This document shows, one piece after another, positions 7,991-32,189 of a DNA stretch of 64,000 nt. The DNA is from a bacterium. Lineage in GTDB: Bacteria > Vulcanimicrobiota > JABDET01. The DNA is taken from the NCBI GenBank assembly GCA_021817145.1, contig JAKAVV010000006.1, positions 83,087 to 147,086 on the forward strand, in the 5' to 3' direction. How positions within the stretch are numbered: position 1 is the stretch's first letter; every line of letters begins with the position of its first letter. The notes under the pieces are model-generated. The model worked only from the letters and a program-made list of their open reading frames with translations, had not been told where the DNA came from and ran no database searches. The translations under genes and the position numbers were made by a program.

Positions 7991-8189
7991 GATAAACTCC
8001 TCCTTTTTTTACTTTTTGTGTCCGGACACTTCTATTCTCTAAACTTATTATACCTAAAAACAAAAAAAATTAAACGGGTTTTTAAAAAAAATCCTTCCCA
8101 AATTAAACCCTGTTTTTATTAAATTCGAGAGTGGAAAGGGGGGCTGAGTTTTACAGGAGAACCCTTTGAATCAGTGAAATAGTGGGAAG

Positions 8190-9431
8190 ATGAATGCTCT
8201 TATCCTGGGAGACCGAAATGCGCAGAGGATTTTTTGGGGGCAGCTTATTTCTCAATCCTGTGATATGGTCATGTCAGTTGGAATTCTCTGGGTGCTTACA
8301 GTGCAGTTCAGCCCAAGATGGATCCCATGGTTTATTGGGATCGGAGCTGTCCCCCATCTTTTTCTATCCACTTATTCAGGAAAATGGATAAAAAAACATG
8401 GCGCTCTGCGAACCGTCACTGCAGCTGATGCTTTTCGCGGTCTCCTTTTCCTTGCTGTGGGATGGGGTATTCTTTATGTTCGAACCAGTTTTAAACTGCT
8501 GATGATTCTTCTTGCTTCTACTTTTGTGTCCAATACAGCAGGAGCCTTGTTTAATCCAGCGATTTTAAGCCTGCCTGTGGAGATGATGCCTCCTGGATTG
8601 AAAAGAGATAAGCTGACCGCCCTCCTGGATTCCTGTTTTTCATTTGGGAGTGTTTTGGGTCCGCTGGTCTCTGCTCTTGTTTATTCTGCTGTCGGCCTGG
8701 GAGGGCTTTTGATCGTGAATGGGATAAGCTACTTTTTCTCTGCTTTCCTTGCTTCAGGAGTTAAACTCAGTAAACGTATTGGAGAAGTTACTCCTGAATC
8801 TTTGGATGGGGGTGGTTCTTCAGCCTCTGAATCTGGATCAAGACCTAAATCTACTTTGCAAGTGCTGAAAAGCGAACCTGTTATTTTTGGAATGTTAGGA
8901 CGCTTTCTTCTCATCAATCTTTTTTTGGCCCCAATTATGGTCTTTATGCCGTGGTATGTTAAAAATGTTTACAAGATCGGGATCGCGGGACTGGCAGCCC
9001 TCGAAGTTTGTATTGGGCTTGGAACTCTGGCAGGGAGTCTTTTGCTTTCATTCACCCCTTTTCCCGGGTTCTCTGCATGGAAGAAGATTATGACTTCGGT
9101 ATGTGTGGCAGGATTAGCCTATCTTGCTTTCAGTTTTTCGAAGGGGCTTGTTTTTGGCTCTCTGTCAGTTGGAATTCTGGGTTTTTGTCTAGGGCTTGTC
9201 AATGTCATGATCTTAACTTTTTTCCAAAACAGCCCACAGCCTCAGGACGTGCCAGTTATTATGGGTGTGGTGAATTTAATCGGTGTGGCTTCTCTCCCTA
9301 TTTCAATGGGAATAGCAGGGGCGGTTATTGAATATGTCCCTGTGAAAAGTTTAGCGATTTCGTGCGCAGTGATCATGATTGCAGTCGCAGTTTCTTTTGG
9401 ATTCATTCCAGGAATCAGGAGGATTGCATGA
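8190..9431 (+). CDS. MFS transporter (DHA3/macrolide-efflux-like)
   Basis: About 12 hydrophobic segments; ADAFRG and FNPA motifs. Confidence 0.88.
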   Translation: MNALILGDRNAQRIFWGQLISQSCDMVMSVGILWVLTVQFSPRWIPWFIGIGAVPHLFLSTYSGKWIKKHGALRTVTAADAFRGLLFLAVGWGILYVRTSFKLLMILLASTFVSNTAGALFNPAILSLPVEMMPPGLKRDKLTALLDSCFSFGSVLGPLVSALVYSAVGLGGLLIVNGISYFFSAFLASGVKLSKRIGEVTPESLDGGGSSASESGSRPKSTLQVLKSEPVIFGMLGRFLLINLFLAPIMVFMPWYVKNVYKIGIAGLAALEVCIGLGTLAGSLLLSFTPFPGFSAWKKIMTSVCVAGLAYLAFSFSKGLVFGSLSVGILGFCLGLVNVMILTFFQNSPQPQDVPVIMGVVNLIGVASLPISMGIAGAVIEYVPVKSLAISCAVIMIAVAVSFGFIPGIRRIA

Positions 9432-10585
9432 TTGACTCTATCCAAATCCAACCGGCCAGCCTTAAGGATAGAGAGGAGTTGCTGAAGCTTTATTTTTTAA
9501 CTTATGGCAGAGATTATCCCCTGGCTTATGGCACAGATTCCCAAAAAATGACAGAGGCGATCAGCTCAGAAGAGTATGAATGGCTGACTGCTCGCGATCT
9601 GAAAAATGACTCTATCATTGGCTCTATTGTCTTTGAGTTAGATCGCCTGAATAAAGTGGGAAAAGCAGCTGCTCTTGTGGTTCATCCGGATTATCGAAAA
9701 GCTGGAATTGGCTCTCAGCTTTTAGCCAGAGGGAATGCCTTAATTGGTTCTGATGGGTTCCTTAATTCGATTTACACGACGACCCGAACTCAAAATATTG
9801 GGCCCCAGTTAATCTGCCTTCGCGAAGGGTATCTCCCTTTGGGGATCTTTCCCAATGCTCATAAACTGAAAACTTATGAAACAACGACCTTGATGGTAAA
9901 GTTTAAAGAAGGAGCTCTGGAGAAACGAATTTCAATAGAAAAGATCCCCCAGAAATTGATTCCTCTTTATGAAGTCGTAAGGGAAAGGCTTCCTGAAATT
10001 AATCTTCCTAAATGCGCAGAAATGTCAAATGGGATTTCAGGACGTCTGCCTCGGAAAGAAGTTTCCTTTGAGGCGATCTTTGCTCCCAATTATGTGCTGC
10101 GCAGGTTCAGATCCGATGTCATGGATCCACAAAATCAGTTTTACCCTTTTCACTCTCCCAACCTGCTTTTAGCAGAAGAAAATGGGAATATTGAGGTTTT
10201 CGCGTTTTTTAACAAATCAGATGGATACTGCACCTTGATCTCCTTTAATCCTCCGATTTATGAGCTTGAAGATGTGATTCCCGCCCTTTTAGACAAGCTT
10301 CATGGACTTGGGGTTTCTTATGTGGAAGTTTTGGTTGGAACAGATCGAATCCAATCCATTGAGGTTTTGCTGCGTTCTCAATTTCTCCCTTCTGCTCTTT
10401 ACCCTGCCATGAGGGAAGTAAAAGGGAGAACTTATGATTTTGTGGTTATGACTCGCACCATGGAGCCTCTCAATTTCCGCGGAATGCAGATTGAGCAGGC
10501 ATTTAAACCTTATATTGACCAATATGTGAATTTATGGAAATCAATGTATTTAGAAACCCTTGAGGTATTTAGAGATTATGAATGA
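9428..10585 (+). CDS. GNAT N-acyltransferase with long C-terminal extension
   Basis: LVVHPDYRKAGIGSQLL acyl-CoA motif A; ATG 9428 overlaps the MFS stop (ATGA). Confidence 0.8.
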   Translation: MIDSIQIQPASLKDREELLKLYFLTYGRDYPLAYGTDSQKMTEAISSEEYEWLTARDLKNDSIIGSIVFELDRLNKVGKAAALVVHPDYRKAGIGSQLLARGNALIGSDGFLNSIYTTTRTQNIGPQLICLREGYLPLGIFPNAHKLKTYETTTLMVKFKEGALEKRISIEKIPQKLIPLYEVVRERLPEINLPKCAEMSNGISGRLPRKEVSFEAIFAPNYVLRRFRSDVMDPQNQFYPFHSPNLLLAEENGNIEVFAFFNKSDGYCTLISFNPPIYELEDVIPALLDKLHGLGVSYVEVLVGTDRIQSIEVLLRSQFLPSALYPAMREVKGRTYDFVVMTRTMEPLNFRGMQIEQAFKPYIDQYVNLWKSMYLETLEVFRDYE

Positions 10586-11750
10586 GATTCAGGTTCCTGA
10601 TTCTGCGGCATTGAAAAGTGTCCAATCATTGTGCGAGATCAACACTCCTTATGATTGGACAGAGCGCTCTGAGAAGTTGTTTGCAGAAGGGATGAAAGAG
10701 ATTGTAAGCTGGCATATTCGAAACAATCGTTTTTTTCGAAGTTTGATGGAATCCCGAAGTTTTACCCCTGATCAGATTAAAAATTCTGATGACTGCGCTC
10801 ATATCCCCTTTGTTTTAGCAAATTATTTCAAAACTCATGAAGAGCTTTCAATACCAAAGGATCAGATTGTTCTGCATGCCACTTCCTCTGGAACCACAGG
10901 GCAGAAATCTCAATTTTTCTTTGATGATTGGACACTTAGGGCAACACAAAGAATGATTGACTGGATTTTTGGGTTTTACGGCTGGACTTCTCCAGATAAA
11001 CCCGCTAATTATCTTCTTTATTCTTATGAGATTGAGCCAGATTTAAAGCTTGGAACCGCTTATACTGACAATTTTCTCTGCAAGTATGCCCCTGTGAATC
11101 ATCTGTTTTATGCTCTCAGAAGAACAGGCTCTGGAACCCATGAATTTGATCTTTTTGGGTGTATTGAAAAACTGATCGAGTATTCAAAAACAAAGCTTCC
11201 AGTCCGTATTTTTGGTTTTCCCGCATTCCTCCATTTTACTCTGGAACGGATGCGAGCTTTGAGAATACCCAAGCTTGAGCTTTCTCCTGATTCTCTCGTG
11301 TTTTTAGGAGGAGGATGGAAAGGGTATGCAGACCAGCAGATTGATAAACGGGAATTGTATCACAGAGTGACAGAGCAGTTAGGGATTCCTGATCACAGAC
11401 TTCGGGATGGGTTTGGTTCTGTGGAGCACAGCATTCCCTATATTGAATGCGAGTCTCACGAATTCCATGTTCCAATCTGGTCTAGAGTTTATATTCGCGA
11501 TGTGAAAACCTTGACCCCTCTTCCAACAGGTTCAGAAGGGTTTCTGCAGTTTGTCACTCCAACAGTTACCTCTGTCCCAGCTTGCAGCGTTTTAATGGGA
11601 GATTTAGCTTCCTGGTATGAAGGAAGTTCTTGTCCTTGCCCTTTATCCACTCCGTATTTTGTGGTGCATGGAAGAGCAGGTATTTCAAAAAACAAAAGCT
11701 GCGCAGTCACTGCTGCAGAGATGCTGGGTAAAGAAAGGAGCGGCCCATGA
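10578..11750 (+). CDS. LuxE-family acyl-protein synthetase
   Basis: ATSSGTTGQKS, FGFPAF, GGGWKG, RDGFGSVEH, VLMGDLA. Confidence 0.88.
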   Translation: MNEIQVPDSAALKSVQSLCEINTPYDWTERSEKLFAEGMKEIVSWHIRNNRFFRSLMESRSFTPDQIKNSDDCAHIPFVLANYFKTHEELSIPKDQIVLHATSSGTTGQKSQFFFDDWTLRATQRMIDWIFGFYGWTSPDKPANYLLYSYEIEPDLKLGTAYTDNFLCKYAPVNHLFYALRRTGSGTHEFDLFGCIEKLIEYSKTKLPVRIFGFPAFLHFTLERMRALRIPKLELSPDSLVFLGGGWKGYADQQIDKRELYHRVTEQLGIPDHRLRDGFGSVEHSIPYIECESHEFHVPIWSRVYIRDVKTLTPLPTGSEGFLQFVTPTVTSVPACSVLMGDLASWYEGSSCPCPLSTPYFVVHGRAGISKNKSCAVTAAEMLGKERSGP

Positions 11751-14293
11751 GCCCTCAGATAAAACCGCATTTATGGCAGGGAAACTGGCTGGATGATTCC
11801 GAGCTCAAAGAGGCAGTTAAGAATTTGTCCCGTATGATTAAGGATGCTCTGCAAGCTCCTCTTGACACTCGATCATTGATTCAATCTTGCGATCGGTTAA
11901 GCCAGAAATTGAAGGATGAAAAAGGGGAAATTTACGAGGTCTTATTTAGAACTTTGATAAAGGGTTCTGACATGAACCCTCTAGAGATTTCCAATGGACT
12001 TTTAGAGATTTCCGAGTTTCTGAGAGGTGAAAATCTTGAGCAGAAGCTCAAGAGAGAGTTTGGGACAATAGATCCATTCAATTTTTCTCGCCCTGACCGA
12101 AGGTTTTCGGTGTTTGAGAAGTGGGCTCCACTTGGTTTTCTTGTCCATACTGCTCCCACAAATTCTTTCAGCGTTGGGGCTTTATCTGTTGTTGAGGGGT
12201 TGCTGGCAGGGAATGTGAATTTTCTCAAAACCGGCGGTTCTGATGGACTGTTTGCGCAGTCTTTTTTGAAATTTTTGATGGATCTTGATGTATCAGGACT
12301 GACAGCTTCTAAAATTTTTGTGTGCAGAATCTCTTCTCGAGATAAAGAGCTCTTAAAAGAGATCTTTTCTCATGCGGATGGAATTGCAGCTTGGGGCGGG
12401 GAAGAGGGTGTTGAAGGGGTTAGAGCTCTTGCTCCTCCACTTGCCCGATTTATTGACTGGGGTCCAAAAATTTCATTTGCCTATTTTGCCGCAGAAAATA
12501 TTGGAAATAGGGAAGAGATCTCCCGGTTTGCCTATGACTGCTGTTTTTTAGATCAGCAGGCTTGTTCCAGCCCTCAGTGTGTTTATGTGGAAACATCAGA
12601 TTCGAGAAAACTGAAAGAGTTTGCTCTCCAGCTTGGAGCAGAACTGGAAAAAATTTCTCCCAATATCCAGAAAAAGGATCCAGATATTCATGAACAGGCA
12701 GAGATTACTTCTGTGACAGAGCTCTGCCGCCTGGAATCCTGCTTTGGTTTAACTGAAGTACTCGAAGATCAAGATAAAAGTTGGAGGATTTTAATTGATC
12801 ATGCCAGCGCTTTAAGAGCTTCTCCGCTTTTTAGAACGATCTGGGTGAAACCGATTCAAAGGGATCGGATTCTGGAGACGTTTAGACCTTTTCGATTTTA
12901 TCTTCAAACAGCTGCTCTTTCCTGCAGTCTTAATTCTTTAGCTGAAATCAGCGAGGCTCTTGTCAGAGCTGGTATTCTTCGTATTACTCCTGTTGGGAAA
13001 ATGCTGGAAAGTTATTCAGGGGAGCCCCATGATGGAGTTTATGCTCTTCAGAGGTATGCTCGCAGAATCAGTTTGCAGCTGGATCAAAAAGCAGAAGGGA
13101 TCTCCACTTTTTCGGAGCTGACTCCAGTTCTGCGCAAGCCCCCTCAGGTTCGGATTATGAGTAAACAGGAGTTTCAATCAGCCCCTCTTGATCCAGAGCG
13201 CTCCCATCTTTATTTTAAAAGCGGAGGCTCTAGCGGGGATCCGAAACTTTCTGTTTTCAGTTATAATGAATATCACCTTCAGATGAAAGCAGGGGCAGAT
13301 GGGCTTTTTGCCGCTGGGCTTGATCCAGCAAAAGATCGATGTATGAATCTCCTTTATGCTGGAGGGCTTTACGGCGGATTTGTCAGTATATTTTCGGTTT
13401 TAGAGGATTTAAATGCGGTTCAATTTCCTATGGGGGCTCATCCTGATACAAGGATGGTGGCTGAAACAATTGCCGCGCATCAGGTGAATGTTCTTATTGG
13501 AATGCCCTCTTATTTGATTCAGCTTTTTATGCAGAATTCCGATTTTTTTAAAGAGCATCCAGTAGTAGAGAAGATTTTTTATGGGGGGGAACATTTTAAT
13601 GAAGTTAAAAAGCGGCATTTTAGAAATGTTTTTGGGGTAAAGATTATTCGTTCTGCTGCTTATGGGAGTGTTGATGCTGGCCCAATTGGGTTTCAGTGCC
13701 AATACTGTGAAGGGAGTGTTCATCACCTTTTCAGCGATCTTCATGTCCTTGAGATTTTAGATTTGAATCAAGATATCTCTGTGCCTGTTGGAGAACCTGG
13801 AAGAGTGGTTTTAACTTCTCTGGCTCGAGTGGGACAGAAATTGGAAAGGTATGAGATTGGAGATACGGCTCGGCTTCTGCCTGGAGAGTGCCCTTGTGGG
13901 CGCAGATCCCCTCGATTTGAGCTTCTGGGAAGACATGGGGATGTTTTCAGAATTGGGAGCATGTTCTTTAATTACGCAAAGTTTGAAAATATTCTTGCTG
14001 AGGAGTTGAATTACACAGGTGAACTGCAAATCTTTCTCCGATCAGGAAAAGGAATAGGGAAAGAAGAGCTGCATCTTCAGCTTTCAAAGGAGAGTGGGCT
14101 GGGGCGGGAAGATGTAAAGTTAGTAAAATCTGCGATTTTGGATGGATATCAAGATCTCAAGGAAGTGGTGGATAGGGAGAAAATTCTTGATTTTACCATT
14201 TCTCTGGTCCCTTCAGTGGAATTTCAGAGAATTCCTGGCAGCGGCAAACTGCGCAGGATTGTAGATGAAAGGCTGACACAGGAAATGAAATGA
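11747..14293 (+). CDS. LuxC-type acyl-CoA reductase fused to a C-terminal PaaK-like (phenylacetate-CoA ligase family) adenylation domain
   Basis: PLGFLVHTAPTN, AWGGEEG, DQQACSSPQ (catalytic Cys); then FKSGGSSGDPK, YGSVDAG, RYEIGD, GRHGD. Confidence 0.88.
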   Translation: MSPQIKPHLWQGNWLDDSELKEAVKNLSRMIKDALQAPLDTRSLIQSCDRLSQKLKDEKGEIYEVLFRTLIKGSDMNPLEISNGLLEISEFLRGENLEQKLKREFGTIDPFNFSRPDRRFSVFEKWAPLGFLVHTAPTNSFSVGALSVVEGLLAGNVNFLKTGGSDGLFAQSFLKFLMDLDVSGLTASKIFVCRISSRDKELLKEIFSHADGIAAWGGEEGVEGVRALAPPLARFIDWGPKISFAYFAAENIGNREEISRFAYDCCFLDQQACSSPQCVYVETSDSRKLKEFALQLGAELEKISPNIQKKDPDIHEQAEITSVTELCRLESCFGLTEVLEDQDKSWRILIDHASALRASPLFRTIWVKPIQRDRILETFRPFRFYLQTAALSCSLNSLAEISEALVRAGILRITPVGKMLESYSGEPHDGVYALQRYARRISLQLDQKAEGISTFSELTPVLRKPPQVRIMSKQEFQSAPLDPERSHLYFKSGGSSGDPKLSVFSYNEYHLQMKAGADGLFAAGLDPAKDRCMNLLYAGGLYGGFVSIFSVLEDLNAVQFPMGAHPDTRMVAETIAAHQVNVLIGMPSYLIQLFMQNSDFFKEHPVVEKIFYGGEHFNEVKKRHFRNVFGVKIIRSAAYGSVDAGPIGFQCQYCEGSVHHLFSDLHVLEILDLNQDISVPVGEPGRVVLTSLARVGQKLERYEIGDTARLLPGECPCGRRSPRFELLGRHGDVFRIGSMFFNYAKFENILAEELNYTGELQIFLRSGKGIGKEELHLQLSKESGLGREDVKLVKSAILDGYQDLKEVVDREKILDFTISLVPSVEFQRIPGSGKLRRIVDERLTQEMK

Positions 14294-14315
14294 TGGAGAC
14301 TGATGGGAATAGTGT

Positions 14316-15692
14316 ATGATGAGTGGACTGCAAAATAATCTGAAAGTTTATCATTGGAAAGAAATTGTGGATTGGGCAAGAGAAAATTCCCCTTTTTACA
14401 GGGAACTTTATCACGGCATTTTCCCAGTTGAAAAACTTTCTGATCTGCCGATTGTCAATCAAGATGATTTCTGGAAAGCGAACACAATTCAGAATAATCG
14501 AGTCTTAACCTCTTCAACCCTGGATGGAATTGTTTTTAAAAGCGGAGGAACAACAGGAAATCCGAAGTTTTCAGTTTTTACTCGTGAAGAGTGGAATGAC
14601 ATGGTTCATTTGTTTGGAGAAGGAATGAGTCAGGCTGGTATTTCTAAAGGGGACAGAGTCGGTAATCTTTTTTATGTTGGGGATCTGTATGGTTCATTTA
14701 TTTTTATTATGAGATCTTTAGAATCAGGACCTATTCCAGTTCTGCAGTTTCCGATTGGGGGAGGAACTTCTCTTGATACGATTTTAAAAACGGTGAATGA
14801 CTTTCAGATTAATGTTCTGGTTGGACCACCTACCACTCTTCTGAGCGCTGCTGCGTATTATCTTGAAAACCGCTTTTTGTATCCTGATATTCGTATTGAT
14901 AAAGCCCTTTATGGGGGAGAATCTATTTATTCGGATCAGAGAGAACAGCTGCTCACAGCTTTTCCTGGAGTAAAGATTCTATCTGTTGGGTATGCTAGTG
15001 TGGATGCAGGGCTATTGGGGTATGCCGCTAAAGATTGTCAGTTGGATGAACACAGAGTTTTTGCTTCTTCAGTCATTCTTGAGATTGTGGATGAAGAAAC
15101 AGGGCAGCCAATTGAAGAGGTTGGACATCCAGGAAAACTGACTGCTACCAGTTTGACAAGAAGATTGATGCCGATTATTCGGTATCCTGTTGGGGATCGG
15201 GCTGAATGGAAAGAGCCCTTTTCAGAAGAGAAAAAGGATCGGAAATTTTTGCTTTTAGGGCGTTCTGATGATGCTGCTCGCATTGGGCCTCTTTCTGTTT
15301 ATTATGAAGATATGAGAGAGATTATTGCCGCGGCTAATACTGGGGTTCCAATCACTGCCTTTCAACTTGTGGTCCGTCATTCGAATAAAAAAGATGGATT
15401 GATTGTGCGAATGGCGGTCTTACCAGAAGAGCTCCAGGACAGAGCTTTGCAAAGCCAGGAAAGTGGAGGCAAAGTTCAGGAAAGTCGAGAAAGCAGCGGC
15501 AGAGCTTCGAAGAAGTTAGACAAAGCTTGGGAAAAGATCCTGAATCTGTTTAATCAAGAGCGTTCCGCTTATCTGCAGGCAGTAGAGCGAGATTTGATTT
15601 ATCCAATGGCTGTGGAGTGGACCACTTCTGATCAAATGAAAATCAACTTGAGGACAGGAAAGCTGAAGCGAGTGATTGATCAGCGTAAATAA
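14316..15692 (+). CDS. PaaK/phenylacetate-CoA ligase family adenylate-forming enzyme
   Basis: FKSGGTTGNPK, GYASVDAG, IIRYPVGDRA, LLGRSDD. Confidence 0.88.
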   Translation: MMSGLQNNLKVYHWKEIVDWARENSPFYRELYHGIFPVEKLSDLPIVNQDDFWKANTIQNNRVLTSSTLDGIVFKSGGTTGNPKFSVFTREEWNDMVHLFGEGMSQAGISKGDRVGNLFYVGDLYGSFIFIMRSLESGPIPVLQFPIGGGTSLDTILKTVNDFQINVLVGPPTTLLSAAAYYLENRFLYPDIRIDKALYGGESIYSDQREQLLTAFPGVKILSVGYASVDAGLLGYAAKDCQLDEHRVFASSVILEIVDEETGQPIEEVGHPGKLTATSLTRRLMPIIRYPVGDRAEWKEPFSEEKKDRKFLLLGRSDDAARIGPLSVYYEDMREIIAAANTGVPITAFQLVVRHSNKKDGLIVRMAVLPEELQDRALQSQESGGKVQESRESSGRASKKLDKAWEKILNLFNQERSAYLQAVERDLIYPMAVEWTTSDQMKINLRTGKLKRVIDQRK

Positions 15693-26334: not shown

Positions 26335-27423
26335 ATGGAAAAATTAAGTTCTGAAGCAGTCCTTGAAGCTTTAAAATCAGTGAAAGATCCAGAGCTTGGA
26401 CGCGATGTTGTCAGCTTAAACATGATCAAAGATTTAAAAGTAAATCCTGATAATACGGTTAGCTTAACTCTTGAATTGACAACACCTGCCTGTCCGATTA
26501 AAGGAGAGTTTCAAAATGCGGTTCGACAGGCTGTTTTAAATGCAGGGGCAAAAGAAGCGGTTGTGAATCTTTCTTCCAATACAGGAAAAAGGAGCTTTTT
26601 CCCGATTGCAGGTCAGGAAGAGATTATCCCTGGAGTTAAAAACTCTGTTGCTGTTGCAAGTGGAAAAGGAGGGGTTGGAAAATCAACAGTAACAGCTAAT
26701 CTTGCCATGGCTTTGATTCAAGAAGGAGCAAAAGTCGGTATTTTAGACGCCGATATTTATGGGCCCACAATTCCTTTAATGATGAATATCAGTGAACAAG
26801 CTCCACAAGTTTTCAATGGAAAATTATCTCCTTTACTTCAGTATGACTGCAAAGTGATGAGTATGGGATTGATCCTTCCTAAAGGGGAAGCAGTTGTTTG
26901 GAGAGGTCCTATGGTGGCAAAAATGGTGCATGAATTTGTCAGCGCTGTGGATTGGGGGAATTTGGATTATCTTTTGATCGATCTCCCTCCTGGAACAGGG
27001 GATGCTGCTTTAACAGTGGCGCAGTTAATCCCTCTTTCAGGGGTTGTTATTGTGACAACTCCTCAAGAGGCTGCAACCAGAATTGCGACAAAAGCGATCA
27101 GTATGTTTGGAAAATTAAAAACTCCGATTTTAGGAATTATTGAAAACATGAGTTATTATGAGTGCCCTTCTTGTCATCATCAAGAAGAGATCTTTGGAAA
27201 AGGAGGGGGGGAAATGGCTTCACAAGAGAATAAAATTCCCTTTTTAGGGAAGATTCCTCTTCATCCTTTGATCAGAGAATCAGGGGATGAAGGGAAACCT
27301 GTTGTTATTTTTGACCCTTCTCTTGCGGCTTCTCGAGCCTTTAAAGAGGCTGCTGGGAAAATGGCGGGAAGATTAAGTGTTTTAAAAGCAGGGCTTTCAG
27401 TACAGACCCCTCTGACTGTGTAA
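26335..27423 (+). CDS. mrp: Mrp/ApbC/NBP35 Fe-S cluster carrier ATPase with N-terminal DUF59
   Basis: VKDPELG, ASGKGGVGKST, DADIYGP, DLPPGTGD, ENMSYYECPSC. Confidence 0.95.
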   Translation: MEKLSSEAVLEALKSVKDPELGRDVVSLNMIKDLKVNPDNTVSLTLELTTPACPIKGEFQNAVRQAVLNAGAKEAVVNLSSNTGKRSFFPIAGQEEIIPGVKNSVAVASGKGGVGKSTVTANLAMALIQEGAKVGILDADIYGPTIPLMMNISEQAPQVFNGKLSPLLQYDCKVMSMGLILPKGEAVVWRGPMVAKMVHEFVSAVDWGNLDYLLIDLPPGTGDAALTVAQLIPLSGVVIVTTPQEAATRIATKAISMFGKLKTPILGIIENMSYYECPSCHHQEEIFGKGGGEMASQENKIPFLGKIPLHPLIRESGDEGKPVVIFDPSLAASRAFKEAAGKMAGRLSVLKAGLSVQTPLTV

Positions 27424-27435
27424 AGGGGATCCCTT

Positions 27436-29376
27436 TTGGATAAAATTGCCTGGAATCCGACTGAAGATCAAGTAAAATCCAGCAGGATTTATTCTTTTAT
27501 GAAAAAGCGCGGGTTTGAAACTTATGATCAGCTTTATAAAAAAACAGTGCAAGATCCTGCCTGGTTCTGGGAGGTCTTTGTCGAGGATTTAAACCTGGAA
27601 TGGTATCAGTTATATCATAAAGTTTTAGAGATTCCTTCTAGCGGCTGGAAATGGGCGAAATGGTTTACCGGCGGAAAAATGAATTTGGTCCGAAATGCTT
27701 TAGATCGGCATGTTTTCAGTTCTAAGAGAAATCAATTGGCATTGATTTGGGAAGGGGAGGAAGGGAAAAAGGAAAAATTTTCTTACTTTGATCTTTACAA
27801 AGAGGTCTGCAGAACCGCGAATGGTTTGAAATCTCTTGGAATTAAAAAAGGGGATAGAGTCGGTATTTTTATGCCAATGACCCCTGAATGCGTGATTTCC
27901 ACTTTGGCTGTCTCTAAAATTGGAGCGATTTTTGTTCCTCTTTTTTCAGGTTATGGTTCTCAAGCCATTGCCGCAAGATTAAATGACTGCGAAGCAAAAC
28001 TTCTTTTTACATCAGATGGGTTTTACCGCAGAGGGAAACTGGTTTTGATGAAGCCAATCGCAGATGAGGCAATTGCTCTTTCTCCTTCTGTAAAACACTG
28101 CATTGTGCATCGAAGAACAGGGGAAAAGATTCTCTGGAGTAAAGACAGGGATTTAGATTGGCGTGAATTTTTAAATCAGTTCCCTGCTGCTTGTGTTACA
28201 GAGATCATGGATTCAGAAGATCCCTATATGATTATTTATACTTCGGGGACAACAGGAAAACCAAAAGGAACAGTTCATACTCACTGTGGCTTTCCTTTCA
28301 AAGCCGCGATGGATTTAGCCTATCATTTTGATTTAAAACCAGAAGATCTCCTTTTCTGGTTTAGTGACATGGGATGGATGATGGGACCTTGGGAAGTGGC
28401 TGGAGCTTTAACTCTTGGCAGCACTTTTTTTATTTATGATGGGGCTCCTGATTACCCTGATCCTGATCGGCTCTGGAGAATGATTGAAACTCATGGGATT
28501 ACAATGCTCGGATTATCTCCCACTGTGATTCGAGCGTTTATGAAATACCCTGCTGCATGGGTTGAAAAACGGGATTTATCTTCTCTTCGTGTTTTAGGTT
28601 CAACAGGAGAACCCTGGAATCCAGAAGCCTGGAATTGGTATTTCGAAAAAGTGGGAAAAAGAAAAGCTCCCATTATTAACTACTCAGGTGGAACTGAAAT
28701 TTCGGGTGGAATTTTAGCGTGCAGTTTTCTGCAGCCATTGAAACCTTGCTCTTTTGCTGGTCCAACCCTTGGAATGGATGCAGATGTGGTAAATGAGAGG
28801 GGGGAATCTGTGAAAGGGGAGGTCGGTGAGCTTGTGATCCGAGCTCCTTGGGTTGGAATGACTCGAGGATTCTGGAAAGATCCAGAGCGGTACGAAAAGA
28901 CTTACTGGTCTCGCATCCCTGGGATCTGGTTTCATGGGGACTGGGTTAAAATTGATGAGGATGGGTTCTGGTTTATAGAAGGGCGTTCTGATGACACGAT
29001 TAAAGTGGCGGGGAAAAGGATTGGTCCTGCTGAAGTGGAATCCGCTTTTACCAGTCATCCTTCTGTCTCAGAAGCAGCTGCCATCGGAATTCCTGATGAA
29101 TTAAAAGGAGAGGCGATCGTTTGTTTTGTGGTACTGAAACCAGGAATCATCCCTGATGAATCTCTGAGATCAGAATTGCGAAAAGCAGGGGGGAATTCTC
29201 TTGGGAAAGCAGTTGCTCCTCAAATGGTAAAGTTTGTGAAAGAGATTCCAAAAACTCGAAATGGAAAAGTCATGCGTCGAGTGATACGAGCAAAATATTT
29301 GGGATTAACCGATCTGGGGGATTTGTCAGGACTTGAGAGTTTGACAGCTTTAGAAGCGATAGAAAAAAGTTTTTAG
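27436..29376 (+). CDS. Acetate-CoA ligase-like AMP-binding enzyme
   Basis: IYTSGTTGKPKG, YSGGTE, WFHGD, GRSDDTIKVAGKR, PKTRNGKVMRR. Confidence 0.93.
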   Translation: MDKIAWNPTEDQVKSSRIYSFMKKRGFETYDQLYKKTVQDPAWFWEVFVEDLNLEWYQLYHKVLEIPSSGWKWAKWFTGGKMNLVRNALDRHVFSSKRNQLALIWEGEEGKKEKFSYFDLYKEVCRTANGLKSLGIKKGDRVGIFMPMTPECVISTLAVSKIGAIFVPLFSGYGSQAIAARLNDCEAKLLFTSDGFYRRGKLVLMKPIADEAIALSPSVKHCIVHRRTGEKILWSKDRDLDWREFLNQFPAACVTEIMDSEDPYMIIYTSGTTGKPKGTVHTHCGFPFKAAMDLAYHFDLKPEDLLFWFSDMGWMMGPWEVAGALTLGSTFFIYDGAPDYPDPDRLWRMIETHGITMLGLSPTVIRAFMKYPAAWVEKRDLSSLRVLGSTGEPWNPEAWNWYFEKVGKRKAPIINYSGGTEISGGILACSFLQPLKPCSFAGPTLGMDADVVNERGESVKGEVGELVIRAPWVGMTRGFWKDPERYEKTYWSRIPGIWFHGDWVKIDEDGFWFIEGRSDDTIKVAGKRIGPAEVESAFTSHPSVSEAAAIGIPDELKGEAIVCFVVLKPGIIPDESLRSELRKAGGNSLGKAVAPQMVKFVKEIPKTRNGKVMRRVIRAKYLGLTDLGDLSGLESLTALEAIEKSF

Positions 29377-32189
29377 GAAGATTCCTTTGTCAGCCAGGTT
29401 AACAGTTCTTCTGCTGTTTTTTCGAGATTGGCTTCCTTGATTTTTTCTCTGGCTGCTTCAGCTTGACTTTTTGAAAATTGAGGTTCTAGCCCATATAAGA
29501 TTTGAACTGCTTTGTTTTTCGTTTTTTGTTCGCTGGACGGATGGTTTGCGGAAAAACCAGCTAAAAGATACGCTTTCTCTTTCCCCTCTTTTTTCATAAA
29601 ACAGCTTGCAGCTGCAGCAAATACTCTTAAAATGATATGGTGAGCTTTAATTTTTAATGCGATTTCCAGAGCTTCTTTTAAACAGGTTAATCCTGCCGCA
29701 TCCTGGTTTATGTTGAGGAAGAGTAGTTCTCCTAAACCTGTAAGACAGATGGAGATTTCAAGCTGGGATTCGATTTTCCGAAACAATGCCAGGCTTTGCT
29801 TATAATAGGACTCAGCTTCCTTGTATTCTTGCAAATAAAAAGCGGTTTCTCCTAAATTTAAAAGGGCAATTCCTGCTATTTTATCATCCCTTATCTCTTT
29901 AAGAATGGAAAGGGATTTTTGATAAAAAACTTTTGCTTCCTCAAACTGTTCCATTTTGGCTTTGATGTTCCCAATATTTAAAAGAGAAATTCCTATGCTT
30001 CTCTGGTTTCCCAGTTCTTCTTTTATAACCAGGGCTTTTTCATAAAATAAAAGAGCTTTCTCGTTTTCTCCGAGGTCATCATAAAGATTCCCCAGATTAT
30101 TGTAGGCTTTTGATAGGCCTAATTTATCTTGTAATTTTTCTTGTATGCGCAGGTTCTTCAAGAAAAAAATTTCGGCTGCTTTGAATTTTCCCCTCTGCTC
30201 TTCAAGATTTCCAAGAACATTGAGACAGTACCCTTGTTCTGCAGAATTTTTTTCTTTTTGGAAAATAACAAGGCTTTTTTTAAGCCATTCTTCCCCTTTT
30301 TCGTATTGAGAGATCTGATTGTAAAGGGAACCCAATCTAGAGGCAAGGAAAGCATAGTTTTCTTTTTCATCAGGGGATTTATTTTTCATGAAGATCGAAA
30401 GAGCGGATTCGAACAGTTTAATCCCTTCCTGGTAAAAGCTTGAAAAGATAAAATAGTTGTGCAAGCTGAGAGCCAGCTCTGCCAACATTTTTGTTTTTTT
30501 ATTCCGAACCCCCCATTCCCAAGCCGACTTGAGATTTTCGTAATCTTCTCGAATCTCTTTTAAAGCAGCTGCCTGCTCTTTTCCTTTTAATTTTTCCCCT
30601 CTTTGTTTTAGGAATTGGAAGAAGTATTCAGCATGAGCTTTTTCGACCTGCTTTTTTTCTTTTTGGGTTAATTTTTTAAATCCGAATTCTCTTAAAATCT
30701 CATGAATCTCATATCTTCCTGAACCACTTTTTTGAATGAAAGATTGATCGGCTAAAGATAATAAAAGAGGAAGAGAAGCGAGAGCGATCTTTTCAGCTGC
30801 CTCTCTTTGGAATCCACTCTTAAAGATGGTAAGCTTTTTAAATCCTTCTTTTTCTTCCTCTGATAGAAGTTTCCAAGAGGATTCAAAAACAATCTGCATG
30901 CTTTTATGGTGAGCTTCCAATCCTGGTGATTGGGTAGAAAGGAGATCTAGATTTTTATCAATCTCTTCTGCAATCTCTTCACAGGATAAAACTCGAATCC
31001 AGGAAGCGGCTAGTTCAATTCCTAGAGGAGAGTTTTCAACAAGCCTGCAGATTTTAAGAACTGCTGATTTTTTACTGTCGTCTAGATTGAAATCAGGAAT
31101 TATGTTTCTGGCTTTTTGGAGAAAGAGTTGAATCGCGGAGTAATTTTCAAAATTCTCTGTTTTTTCATTTTCAGGGGACTGCAGCCCTTCCAGAGGAAAA
31201 CTGACTTCTCCTGGAACATTTAATCTGATTCTTGATGTGACCAGCTGCTTGAGTTTTGGGGCTTCTTTTAAGATTTCATGAACAAGATGGCTGTTTTGGG
31301 TTAAATGTTCAAAATTGTCAAAGATCTGGAGCGCTTCTTTGTCTTTCAAGTAATTGATGATTTGAGTTTTTTCTTCTGCCCCTTTCTGAAAGGTGTAGTT
31401 CATAGAAGCGGCAATAGCAGGAATAATCTGAGCAGGGGAATCTAAAGATACAAGCGGCACAAAAAATACGCCATCTTTAAATAGTTCCAGGTTTTCAGCA
31501 GCGGTTTGAATGGCAAGCCTTGTTTTCCCAACCCCTCCTGGACCAAGAATTGTGATCAATCTGCAGGAAGAATCTTGCAGCTTTTTTGAGAGCTTGAGCA
31601 GTTCCATCCCTCTTCCCACAAAAGGTGAGAATTGAACAGGGAGATTGTTGGGGTGAGAGGATAAGGATCTCAAGGGAGGAAATTTTTTTATCTGAAGACA
31701 TGGATGAATCAATTGGAATAAAGGGGTTGGTTCTTCTAAATCTTTTAATCTATGGGTTCCTAGATCTTCTAAAAAGGCTCCTGGAGGGAGTTTGCACTTG
31801 TGCGCAGCATCAGAGGATAATAGAATTTGTCCTCCCCAGCCGCAGGCAAGGATTCGGGCAGTGCGATTGACAGCAGGTCCAAAGTAGTTGTCCCCCCTTT
31901 TTTCAGCTTCTCCAGCATGGATGGCAATTCGAATCCTTACCTCTCCTAGTGAACCCCAGTTTTCTCCGGCAAATTTTTTATTCATTTCAACAGCAAATTG
32001 TAGAGGATCTCCTTTTTCAAAAATTGCAAAAATGCCGTCCCCTGTGTGAGAAACAAAAATTCCTTGGAAAGCCTTAAGCCCTTCTTTTAAAAGAGCATCA
32101 TGATGATCTAAGGCTTTTGCCATTTCATCAGGATGCTGCTCCCATTTTTTTGTGGATCCTTCAATATCAGTAAAAAGAAAGATTGGCAT
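29373..32189 (-). CDS. Class III adenylate/guanylate cyclase + NB-ARC-like STAND ATPase + TPR protein
   Basis: FLFTDIEGST, GDG, NYFGPAVNRTAR; GPGGVGKT, DNFEH; TPR repeats (AYNNLG). Confidence 0.92.
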   Translation of the reverse strand: MPIFLFTDIEGSTKKWEQHPDEMAKALDHHDALLKEGLKAFQGIFVSHTGDGIFAIFEKGDPLQFAVEMNKKFAGENWGSLGEVRIRIAIHAGEAEKRGDNYFGPAVNRTARILACGWGGQILLSSDAAHKCKLPPGAFLEDLGTHRLKDLEEPTPLFQLIHPCLQIKKFPPLRSLSSHPNNLPVQFSPFVGRGMELLKLSKKLQDSSCRLITILGPGGVGKTRLAIQTAAENLELFKDGVFFVPLVSLDSPAQIIPAIAASMNYTFQKGAEEKTQIINYLKDKEALQIFDNFEHLTQNSHLVHEILKEAPKLKQLVTSRIRLNVPGEVSFPLEGLQSPENEKTENFENYSAIQLFLQKARNIIPDFNLDDSKKSAVLKICRLVENSPLGIELAASWIRVLSCEEIAEEIDKNLDLLSTQSPGLEAHHKSMQIVFESSWKLLSEEEKEGFKKLTIFKSGFQREAAEKIALASLPLLLSLADQSFIQKSGSGRYEIHEILREFGFKKLTQKEKKQVEKAHAEYFFQFLKQRGEKLKGKEQAAALKEIREDYENLKSAWEWGVRNKKTKMLAELALSLHNYFIFSSFYQEGIKLFESALSIFMKNKSPDEKENYAFLASRLGSLYNQISQYEKGEEWLKKSLVIFQKEKNSAEQGYCLNVLGNLEEQRGKFKAAEIFFLKNLRIQEKLQDKLGLSKAYNNLGNLYDDLGENEKALLFYEKALVIKEELGNQRSIGISLLNIGNIKAKMEQFEEAKVFYQKSLSILKEIRDDKIAGIALLNLGETAFYLQEYKEAESYYKQSLALFRKIESQLEISICLTGLGELLFLNINQDAAGLTCLKEALEIALKIKAHHIILRVFAAAASCFMKKEGKEKAYLLAGFSANHPSSEQKTKNKAVQILYGLEPQFSKSQAEAAREKIKEANLEKTAEELLTWLTKESS

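What the first reader, a model, noticed from the sequence alone, without database searches (positions are those of the whole stretch)
8190..15692. Luciferase-free lux-type operon: MFS exporter - GNAT - LuxE - LuxC::PaaK fusion - PaaK (candidate novel small-molecule pathway)
Seen: five co-oriented genes, with start/stop overlaps at 9428, 10578 and 11747 and a 22-bp gap before the last. Catalytic motifs look intact (LuxE TSSGTTG, LuxC DQQAC Cys, two PaaK SGG(S/T)(S/T)GxPK loops, GNAT motif A). No luxA/B/D in the window. Known: LuxE+LuxC reduce acids to aldehydes through acyl-AMP/thioesters; PaaK-family enzymes adenylate (aryl) acids; GNATs transfer acyl groups. Inference: three adenylating modules, a reductase, an acyltransferase and a dedicated exporter look like a compact NRPS-independent assembly line for an exported aldehyde/amide (signal or toxin), not bioluminescence. 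I do not know a characterised product for this arrangement.
Basis: partly seen in the sequence, partly recalled or inferred. Interest (0 to 1): 0.78.

Follow-up and report, generated by a model that had tools for sequence, protein, structure and literature searches.

The report
Leupeptin-type peptide aldehyde gene cluster
The five genes are real and form a compact operon, but it matches the already characterised leupABCD pathway that makes the protease inhibitor leupeptin without a non-ribosomal peptide synthetase; this copy is a divergent, uncharacterised variant from an uncultured mine-drainage bacterium.

Summary
Five co-oriented, translationally coupled genes lie at 8190-15692: MFS, GNAT, LuxE-like, LuxC::PaaK fusion and PaaK-like, with all the named motifs present.

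The Klebsiella michiganensis leupeptin operon has the same parts: MFS, leupA (LuxE-like), leupB (LuxC::PaaK fusion), leupC (PaaK-like) and leupD (GNAT). I fetched it with the published leupA/leupB primers.

- **Core enzymes.** The three core proteins match module by module: 49%, 37% and 40% identity over full length. Each ligase is closest to its positional counterpart.
- **Accessory genes.** The GNAT is a 385-aa two-lobed protein, where LeupD has 305 aa. The MFS is also not orthologous to the Klebsiella one.
- **Phylogeny.** The fusion protein falls in a deep sister clade (100/100 support). That clade spans several phyla and has no characterised member that I could find.
- **Conservation.** The same cassette recurs in Bdellovibrionales, Elusimicrobiota, Massilia and several metagenomes.

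Best reading, at about 0.8: an NRPS-independent pathway to an exported N-acyl peptide aldehyde protease inhibitor. Two ligases make the amide bonds and LuxE plus LuxC reduce the terminal carboxylate. The exact product is unknown. This is a new variant of a known kind, of moderate interest.

The parts
7991..8189 (+). AT-rich intergenic region between the divergent Hsp20 gene and the MFS gene; presumed promoter region of the operon
   Evidence: Sequence read. One weak sigma-70-like match lies at 8023-8051, but the number of promoter-like sites is no higher than in shuffles. No Rfam element found. The promoter role is inferred only.
8190..9431 (+). MFS transporter (413 aa), presumed exporter of the product
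   Evidence: Pfam MFS_1 4e-20; TIGR00900 H+ antiporter subfamily 6e-23, far below its curated cut-off. It is 40-41% identical to the MFS in the Elusimicrobiota and Massilia cassettes. It is not related to the Klebsiella leup-adjacent MFS.
9428..10585 (+). Two-lobed GNAT N-acyltransferase (385 aa); presumed N-acylation of the first amino acid
   Evidence: Pfam Acetyltransf_1 at aa 51-145; RKAGIGSQL acyl-CoA motif. AlphaFold model has pLDDT 80.8, and the secondary-structure order of the C-terminal half (aa ~214-344) resembles a second GNAT fold, which I read from the model and did not test. Foldseek top hits align about 165-170 columns and are amino-acid N-acetyltransferases (ArsN, phosphinothricin acetyltransferase) and SpeG. 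Full-length homologues occur in the L001, L002, L003, L007 and L008 cassettes. Only the N-terminal GNAT domain is remotely similar to LeupD.
10578..11750 (+). LeupA-like / LuxE-like acyl-protein synthetase (390 aa): adenylates the final carboxylate and carries it on Cys375
   Evidence: Pfam LuxE 4e-25. 49% identity over 373 aa to K. michiganensis LeupA, E 1e-131. Aligns to LuxE of the cryo-EM structure 7xc6 with the GGGWK loop and C-terminal Cys conserved. The roles of those residues are taken from PMC9157457.
11747..14293 (+). LeupB-like fusion (848 aa): N-terminal LuxC-type thioester reductase (aa ~1-450, Cys273) plus C-terminal PaaK-like amide ligase (aa ~470-848)
   Evidence: Pfam LuxC 4e-85 plus AMP-binding. 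37% identity end to end with K. michiganensis LeupB, E 3e-178; DQQACSSPQ, EPHDGVYAL and the P-loop are aligned. PDB hits are PaaK 4r1l for aa 490-752 and LuxC 7xc6_A for aa 123-443.
14316..15692 (+). LeupC-like stand-alone PaaK-family amide ligase (458 aa)
   Evidence: NCBIfam PaaK-family hits all fall far below the equivalog cut-offs. 40% identity over 447 aa to K. michiganensis LeupC, E 5e-92. It is closer to LeupC than to the LeupB ligase domain: 274 versus 99 bits.

Best explanation
This is a leup-type operon, an NRPS-independent pathway that builds and exports a short N-acylated peptide aldehyde of the leupeptin class (a serine/cysteine protease inhibitor). Proposed course: the GNAT N-acylates the first amino acid from an acyl-CoA. 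The two PaaK-family ligases (the stand-alone one and the one fused to LuxC) each adenylate a carboxylate and condense it with the amino group of the next amino acid, giving two amide bonds. The LuxE-like enzyme then adenylates the terminal carboxylate and loads it on its C-terminal Cys375. The acyl group passes to Cys273 of the LuxC domain and is reduced by NAD(P)H to the aldehyde. The MFS protein exports the product. Shown here: homology, module-by-module orthology to leupABC, intact catalytic motifs and conservation of the cassette. Taken from the literature: the homologous operons make leupeptins, using separate AMP-dependent ligases for the amide bonds and a reductase for the aldehyde. Inferred: which ligase makes which bond, the order of steps, the acyl group and the amino acids used here.
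For: The reference locus was fetched with the published leupA_f primer. The leupB_r primer lies exactly 1,235 bp away, as published. The K. michiganensis locus reads MFS, LuxE-like 375 aa, LuxC::PaaK 802 aa, PaaK-like 444 aa, GNAT 305 aa, matching the five leup components listed. Window versus Klebsiella: LuxE/LeupA 49%, fusion/LeupB 37% over full length, PaaK/LeupC 40%. Each ligase module pairs best with its positional counterpart, 273-274 bits against 99-104 bits for the cross pairs. Catalytic residues are conserved. The cassette recurs in Bdellovibrionales, Elusimicrobiota, Massilia, Sulfuricellaceae, Chitinimonas and metagenomes. Literature: leup operons of Klebsiella, Photorhabdus and Xenorhabdus make leupeptin and its Lys or homoarginine analogues. 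The pathway uses separate AMP-dependent ligases for amide bonds and a reductase for the aldehyde. The GNAT N-domain structurally resembles amino-acid N-acetyltransferases.
Against: There are no product data for this cassette or, as far as I could find, for any member of its clade. In the tree the fusion sits in a sister clade separated from the LeupB clade with 100/100 support and a long branch, although sampling was limited to the top hits of two queries. The GNAT is not a clear LeupD orthologue: only about 95-130 N-terminal residues align, with 90% hhalign probability. The MFS is unrelated to the Klebsiella one. No transcript evidence exists, since the metatranscriptomes of the same study hold none of the sampled words. 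The primary paper (Li et al. 2020) is not held in the library, so the enzyme roles come from secondary citations and from my own knowledge of Lux biochemistry.
Confidence: 0.8

Rival explanations
1. The cluster makes authentic leupeptin (acetyl- or propionyl-Leu-Leu-argininal), so it is simply another leupeptin producer.
For: The core architecture is the same and leupABC are orthologous. Branched-chain amino-acid transport genes lie next to two related cassettes: Branch_AA_trans in L009 and AzlCD in Klebsiella.
Against: Identity is only 37-49% and the protein sits in a deep sister clade. The GNAT is of a different type. Even among the characterised leup operons (Klebsiella, Photorhabdus, Xenorhabdus) the C-terminal residue varies between Arg, Lys and homoarginine.
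Confidence: 0.2
2. It is a fatty-acid reductase system, with LuxC/LuxE used as in lux operons or flagellin glycosylation islands. It would supply a fatty aldehyde or alcohol for a lipid or glycan modification, with the PaaK enzymes acting as acyl-CoA ligases.
For: Pfam LuxC and LuxE hits. LuxC/LuxE homologues occur in non-luminous contexts such as Aeromonas flagellin glycosylation islands.
Against: NCBIfam LuxC and LuxE equivalog scores (94 and 79 bits) are far below the cut-offs (750 and 550). The cassette has no ACP, LuxD, glycosyltransferase or fatty-acid synthesis gene. The closest characterised relatives are LeupA and LeupB, not LuxE and LuxC (versus 53, 54).
Confidence: 0.05
3. It is an aryl-acid pathway, in line with the first reader's hint. 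The PaaK-like enzymes would activate phenylacetate-like aromatic acids, which are reduced or amidated to an aromatic aldehyde or amide.
For: The best PDB and NCBIfam hits of the ligase modules are phenylacetate-CoA ligases.
Against: Scores are 60-76 bits against equivalog cut-offs of 646-700. No paa catabolic genes lie nearby. The orthologues LeupB and LeupC are reported to make peptide bonds.
Confidence: 0.05
4. The physiologically relevant product is not the inhibitor itself but a pyrazinone signal derived from the peptide aldehyde, as shown for the Leu-Arg pyrazinone of K. oxytoca.
For: Leupeptin-derived pyrazinones act as autoinducer-like signals in K. oxytoca and are produced from Photorhabdus leup operons.
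Against: No homologue of a leupeptin-cleaving protease was looked for or seen next to the cassette. This reading concerns the downstream fate of the product, so it does not exclude the main explanation.
Confidence: 0.15

Closest known systems
leupABCD leupeptin operon of Gammaproteobacteria (Klebsiella michiganensis/oxytoca, Photorhabdus, Xenorhabdus; Li et al. 2020, Angew Chem 59:17872)
   Same: It has the same five functional parts, including the unusual LuxC::PaaK fusion. The core order LuxE, fusion, PaaK is the same. LeupA, LeupB and LeupC are orthologous at 49, 37 and 40% identity, with reciprocal best pairing of the two ligase modules. Catalytic Cys and Lys residues and the P-loops are conserved.
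   Different: The GNAT here sits upstream of the LuxE-like gene. It is a 385-aa two-lobed protein, not the 305-aa LeupD, and only the N-terminal domain is remotely similar. The MFS belongs to a different subfamily. The fusion protein belongs to a multi-phylum sister clade. The host is an uncultured bacterium from mine-drainage, mine-tailings and sediment metagenomes. The product is unknown.
LuxC-LuxE fatty acid reductase of bacterial lux operons (Photobacterium phosphoreum, PDB 7xc6)
   Same: The two-protein chemistry is the same: adenylation, then a thioester on the LuxE C-terminal Cys, then a thioester on the LuxC Cys, then NADPH reduction to the aldehyde. The GGGWK loop and both cysteines align.
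   Different: There is no luxAB or luxD in the cassette. Scores are far below the NCBIfam equivalog cut-offs. LuxC is fused to a PaaK-like ligase. The substrate is presumably a peptide acid, not myristate.
PaaK-family ligases that form amide or ester bonds rather than CoA thioesters (for example AjiA1, PDB 6wuq, of benzoxazole biosynthesis)
   Same: The adenylate-forming fold is the same, and 6wuq and the PaaK-like ligases 6siw are among the PDB hits. That these enzymes act in biosynthesis without a carrier protein rests on my own knowledge.
   Different: Sequence similarity is low (E 6e-14 for 6wuq). Those enzymes act on aromatic acids, whereas here the substrates are presumably N-acyl amino acids or peptides.
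NRPS routes to peptide aldehydes in Streptomyces (antipain, chymostatin, flavopeptins, livipeptin)
   Same: The product class is the same: small peptide aldehydes that inhibit proteases, with the aldehyde made by reduction of an activated carboxylate.
   Different: Those pathways use carrier-protein-tethered NRPS modules and a terminal reductase domain. This cassette has no condensation, thiolation or NRPS adenylation domains.

Membership tests
leup-type (leupeptin) NRPS-independent peptide aldehyde BGC | LeupA: LuxE-like acyl-protein synthetase with an adenylation loop and a C-terminal acyl-accepting Cys | tested here: met
   49% identity over 373 aa to K. michiganensis LeupA. TSSGTTG, GGGWK and Cys375 are present and align to LuxE 7xc6_E.
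leup-type (leupeptin) NRPS-independent peptide aldehyde BGC | LeupB: a single polypeptide fusing a LuxC-type reductase to a PaaK-like ligase | tested here: met
   37% identity end to end to LeupB (802 aa), E 3e-178. DQQACSSPQ and the P-loop are aligned. Both domains pair with their counterparts.
leup-type (leupeptin) NRPS-independent peptide aldehyde BGC | LeupC: a second, stand-alone PaaK-like ligase directly downstream of the fusion | tested here: met
   40% identity over 447 aa to LeupC. It scores 274 bits with LeupC against 99 bits with the LeupB ligase domain. A 22-bp gap follows the fusion gene.
leup-type (leupeptin) NRPS-independent peptide aldehyde BGC | LeupD-type GNAT N-acetyltransferase (about 305-320 aa) | tested here: inconclusive
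   A GNAT is present but of another architecture (385 aa, two lobes). Only about 95-130 N-terminal residues align to LeupD: BLASTP E 5e-05 and hhalign 90%. No similarity was found between LeupD and the window-type GNAT of L008. A LeupD-type GNAT does occur in one cassette of the window's clade, L009.
leup-type (leupeptin) NRPS-independent peptide aldehyde BGC | Adjacent MFS transporter | tested here: met
   An MFS gene overlaps the next gene. It is not orthologous to the Klebsiella MFS, but it is conserved at 40-41% within the window's clade.
leup-type (leupeptin) NRPS-independent peptide aldehyde BGC | Falls in the same phylogenetic clade as experimentally characterised members | tested here: not met
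   In an IQ-TREE of 47 fusion proteins, the window lies in a multi-phylum clade. That clade is separated with 100/100 support from the beta/gammaproteobacterial clade holding K. michiganensis LeupB. Sampling was limited to the top hits of two searches.
leup-type (leupeptin) NRPS-independent peptide aldehyde BGC | Produces leupeptin or a leupeptin analogue | not testable with these tools
   This needs expression and LC-MS. No transcript data were found.
Bacterial lux fatty acid reductase (LuxCDE) / lux operon | LuxC and LuxE reach the curated equivalog scores | tested here: not met
   NF052251 LuxC scores 94 bits against a cut-off of 750. NF052244 LuxE scores 79 bits against 550.
Bacterial lux fatty acid reductase (LuxCDE) / lux operon | luxA/luxB luciferase and luxD acyltransferase in the operon | tested here: not met
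   None is present among the cassette genes or among the 20 ORFs scanned between 1629 and 34138. The whole genome was not searchable.
Phenylacetate-CoA ligase PaaK | Reaches the equivalog score and lies in a paa catabolic context | tested here: not met
   TIGR02155 scores 60 and 67 bits against a cut-off of 646. NF041878 scores 76 and 73 bits against 700. No paa genes were seen nearby.

The most novel reading that the evidence does not exclude
The window's cassette would represent a multi-phylum sister lineage of the leupeptin operon. Its marks are the LeupA/B/C orthologues plus its own two-lobed GNAT and its own MFS. This lineage would make a different, still undescribed N-acyl peptide aldehyde (or a pyrazinone derived from it). 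It would also be a widespread protease-inhibitor BGC class outside the Proteobacteria, largely annotated only as 'acyl-CoA reductase / phenylacetate-CoA ligase'. The 75%-identical relative that lacks the stand-alone ligase (L010) would then make a product one residue shorter. That would imply a 'one ligase, one amide bond' modularity.
Probability: 0.5. Interest if true: 0.55.

Novelty: new variant of a known kind. Interest (0 to 1): 0.35.

Why it matters
Leupeptin is one of the most widely used protease inhibitors, and its ligase-based, NRPS-free pathway has been characterised only in Gammaproteobacteria. This window shows that the same three-enzyme core, including the LuxC::PaaK fusion, exists as a conserved five-gene cassette in an uncultured mine-drainage bacterium. 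The cassette also occurs in Bdellovibrionales, Elusimicrobiota and Betaproteobacteria, and the fusion protein alone has named homologues in Actinomycetota, Obscuribacterales and Magnetomoraceae. The fusion family counts 434 clusters (at 50% identity) with E <= 1e-30. These cassettes carry generic annotations, so they are easy to miss when mining for natural products. The divergent clade is a source of possibly new peptide aldehyde inhibitors and of small, portable amide-forming ligases. For this particular finding the main result is deflationary: the pathway type is already known.

Tried and rejected
- **Whole-genome search.** A search of the window's own genome for luxAB, luxD or a second LuxC was impossible, because the genome search was shut.
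- **Primary paper.** Li et al. 2020 is not held by DOI or PubMed id. Enzyme roles therefore come from secondary citations.
- **Literature dead ends.** LuxC/LuxE mentions in PMC9301485 were only reporter primers. The flagellin glycosylation island LuxC/LuxE lead was rejected because those loci carry ACP, ketoreductase and glycosyltransferase genes that are absent here.
- **Longimycelium context.** The look-up for P0086 found no gene record.
- **RNA evidence.** Only metatranscriptomes from the same study turned up, and they held none of the sampled words. I did not lay reads.
- **Non-coding features.** Rfam found no riboswitch or leader. Promoter and terminator scans were no better than shuffles.
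- **GNAT searches.** A PDB sequence search with the GNAT gave nothing significant, so a model was built and searched by fold instead.
- **Organism.** NCBI labels of proteins at least 90% identical disagree between Eremiobacteraeota and Firmicutes, so the taxon is left open.
- **Not attempted.** I did not predict substrate specificity from pocket residues. No structure of a Leup ligase with substrate is known to me.


Full report
**1.

Five + strand ORFs lie at the stated coordinates:
- MFS, 8190-9431
- GNAT, 9428-10585
- LuxE-like, 10578-11750
- an 848-aa LuxC::PaaK fusion, 11747-14293
- a PaaK-like protein, 14316-15692

The junctions are ATGA overlaps at 9428 and 11747, an 8-nt overlap at 10578 and a 22-bp gap before the last gene.

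Pfam gives MFS_1, Acetyltransf_1, LuxE, LuxC plus AMP-binding in one protein, and AMP-binding. NCBIfam places both ligase modules in the PaaK/F390 neighbourhood, far below every equivalog cut-off. LuxC and LuxE also fall far below their cut-offs, at 94 against 750 bits and 79 against 550 bits.

- LuxE-like: TSSGTTG, GGGWK and a C-terminal Cys375
- LuxC domain: DQQACSSPQ with Cys273
- two P-loops, and the C-terminal GK lysines of both ligases
- the GNAT R-x-x-G-x-G motif

The LuxE-like protein aligns to LuxE of the cryo-EM complex 7xc6. The GGGWK loop and the acyl-accepting Cys are in register. The function of these residues is taken from PMC9157457.

**2. The arrangement is conserved, and it has a characterised relative**

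The fusion protein has more than 1,300 word-indexed homologues. In an exhaustive search it has 434 representatives (50% clusters) with E <= 1e-30. By my count of the lengths listed, most of the best 150 are full-length fusions of 780-915 aa.

Named sources include Bdellovibrionales, Obscuribacterales, Elusimicrobiota, an actinomycete, Sulfuricellaceae, Contendobacter, Magnetomoraceae and Massilia. The gene neighbourhoods show the same cassette:

| Locus | Source | Gene order |
|---|---|---|
| L001 | metagenome | MFS, GNAT, LuxE, fusion, PaaK |
| L002 | GCA_044226015.1 | MFS, GNAT, LuxE, fusion, PaaK |
| L007 | Bdellovibrionales | MFS, GNAT, LuxE, fusion, PaaK |
| L003 | Massilia | GNAT, MFS, LuxE, fusion, PaaK |
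| L008 | Elusimicrobiota | MFS, LuxE, fusion, PaaK, GNAT |
| L009 | Sulfuricellaceae | LuxE, fusion, PaaK, GNAT |

A full-text search then turned up a 2026 preprint that lists the five components of the Klebsiella 'leup' (leupeptin) BGC. [quoted passage not shown]

The leup operon was defined by Li et al. 2020 (Angew Chem 59:17872). It makes leupeptin and its Lys or homoarginine analogues in Klebsiella, Photorhabdus and Xenorhabdus. One paper gives it a MIBiG number. It is described as a non-NRPS pathway that uses separate AMP-dependent ligases for the amide bonds and a reductase for the aldehyde.

**3. Direct comparison with the reference locus**

I fetched the reference locus by scanning genome contigs with the published leupA_f primer. 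The scan returned one hit, K. michiganensis DSM 25444. The leupB_r primer lies exactly 1,235 bp away, as published. The full locus (L005/L006) reads MFS 419 aa, LeupA 375 aa (Pfam LuxE), LeupB 802 aa (LuxC plus AMP-binding, so the same fusion), LeupC 444 aa and LeupD 305 aa (GNAT).

| Window protein | Klebsiella protein | Result |
|---|---|---|
| LuxE-like | LeupA | 49% over 373 aa, E 1e-131 |
| fusion | LeupB | 37% end to end, E 3e-178 |
| PaaK-like | LeupC | 40% over 447 aa, E 5e-92 |
| GNAT | LeupD | only ~95 N-terminal residues, 26%, E 5e-05 |
| MFS | MFS | unrelated |

Each ligase module pairs best with its positional counterpart. The fused ligase scores 273 bits with the LeupB ligase domain against 104 bits with LeupC. 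The free ligase scores 274 bits with LeupC against 99 bits with the LeupB ligase domain. The two ligases therefore diverged before the lineages split and have kept separate roles.

The accessory genes differ. A profile comparison with LeupD reaches 90% probability over 129 columns.

**4. The accessory genes define a variant**

The window-type GNAT is conserved over its full length in L001, L002, L003, L007 and L008, at 28-62% identity. It shows no detectable similarity to LeupD outside the N-terminal domain.

Its AlphaFold model has pLDDT 80.8 and pTM 0.82. The secondary-structure order of the C-terminal half looks like a second GNAT fold, though I did not test that lobe by fold search. Foldseek top hits align about 165-170 columns and are amino-acid N-acetyltransferases (ArsN, phosphinothricin acetyltransferase) and SpeG. 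This fits N-acylation of a free amino acid.

The window-type MFS is likewise conserved within these cassettes, at 40-41% to L008 and L003. A LeupD-type GNAT, 27% identical over its full length, occurs in L009.

A maximum-likelihood tree of 47 fusion proteins splits them into two clades with 100/100 support:
- one clade of Beta- and Gammaproteobacteria that holds LeupB
- a multi-phylum clade that holds the window and L009

The sampling came from the top hits of two queries, so intermediates may exist. I found no characterised member of the window's clade.

**5. Context**

Proteins at least 90% identical to the window's occur in many assemblies. NCBI labels them either Candidatus Eremiobacteraeota or Firmicutes. 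The cassette DNA is found in mine-drainage, mine-tailings and sediment metagenomes from at least six studies. No transcript evidence was found.

The cassette is self-contained. Two divergent Hsp20 genes lie upstream. Downstream lie an IS-like ORF and a GmrSD nuclease gene. Its GC content is slightly higher than that of the flanks, 0.431 against about 0.417. Mobile-element genes flank the cassette in L002, L003 and L011, which fits lateral spread. No Rfam element or convincing promoter or terminator was found.

**6. Mechanism**

- **Shown here:** the homology, the conserved residues and the module pairing.
- **From the literature:** ligases make the amide bonds and a reductase makes the aldehyde. 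LuxE adenylates, self-acylates on its C-terminal Cys and hands the acyl group to the LuxC Cys for NADPH reduction.
- **Inferred:** the GNAT N-acylates the first amino acid. The free and fused PaaK-like ligases each add one residue. The LuxE-like enzyme and the LuxC domain reduce the terminal carboxylate. The MFS exports the product. Three adenylating modules then correspond to two amide bonds plus one reduction, as in a tripeptide aldehyde.

The residues and the acyl group cannot be read from the sequence. The characterised leup operons already differ in the C-terminal residue.

**7. Verdict**

This is a divergent, uncharacterised variant of the known leup-type peptide aldehyde pathway.

What remains of interest is moderate. 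The product is unknown, the GNAT and MFS are distinct, and the cassette is distributed far more widely than the Gammaproteobacteria in which it was characterised.

Noticed in passing
L010:3927-10452: The closest distinct relative (fusion 75% identical, JGI metagenome) has MFS, GNAT, LuxE and the fusion but no stand-alone PaaK ligase. A Sel1/TPR protein follows after 324 nt. It may make a product one residue shorter, or the ligase may be encoded elsewhere.
   Followed up: partly
Together with transposase or integrase genes next to the cassette in L002, L003 and L011, this suggests the cassette moves laterally.
   Followed up: partly
L008:12025-14208; L007:15434-16553: Protease genes lie close to two related cassettes. 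A Peptidase_M3 gene directly follows the GNAT in the Elusimicrobiota locus, and a Peptidase_C11 (clostripain-like) gene lies about 6 kb away in the Bdellovibrionales locus. They could be a target, an immunity function or a processing enzyme, or the proximity could be coincidence.
   Followed up: no
proteins P0361-P0438: A further set of 850-945-aa LuxC plus PaaK-type proteins is only 27-34% identical to the window's fusion and matches in two stretches. It may be a third, more distant lineage of such fusions.
   Followed up: no
window 26335-29376 and the cassette: NCBI labels for MAG proteins at least 90% identical to the window's disagree between Candidatus Eremiobacteraeota and Firmicutes/Bacillota. 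The lineage is uncultured and its taxonomy is unsettled.
   Followed up: no
window 29373-32189 (-): A 937-aa protein combines an adenylate/guanylate cyclase domain, NB-ARC and TPR repeats (a STAND-type signalling architecture).
   Followed up: no
L009:4534-5637; L005:12377-13389: Branched-chain amino-acid transport genes (Branch_AA_trans, AzlC/AzlD) lie next to the Sulfuricellaceae and Klebsiella cassettes. This fits leucine-rich products there. No such gene lies next to the window's cassette.
   Followed up: no
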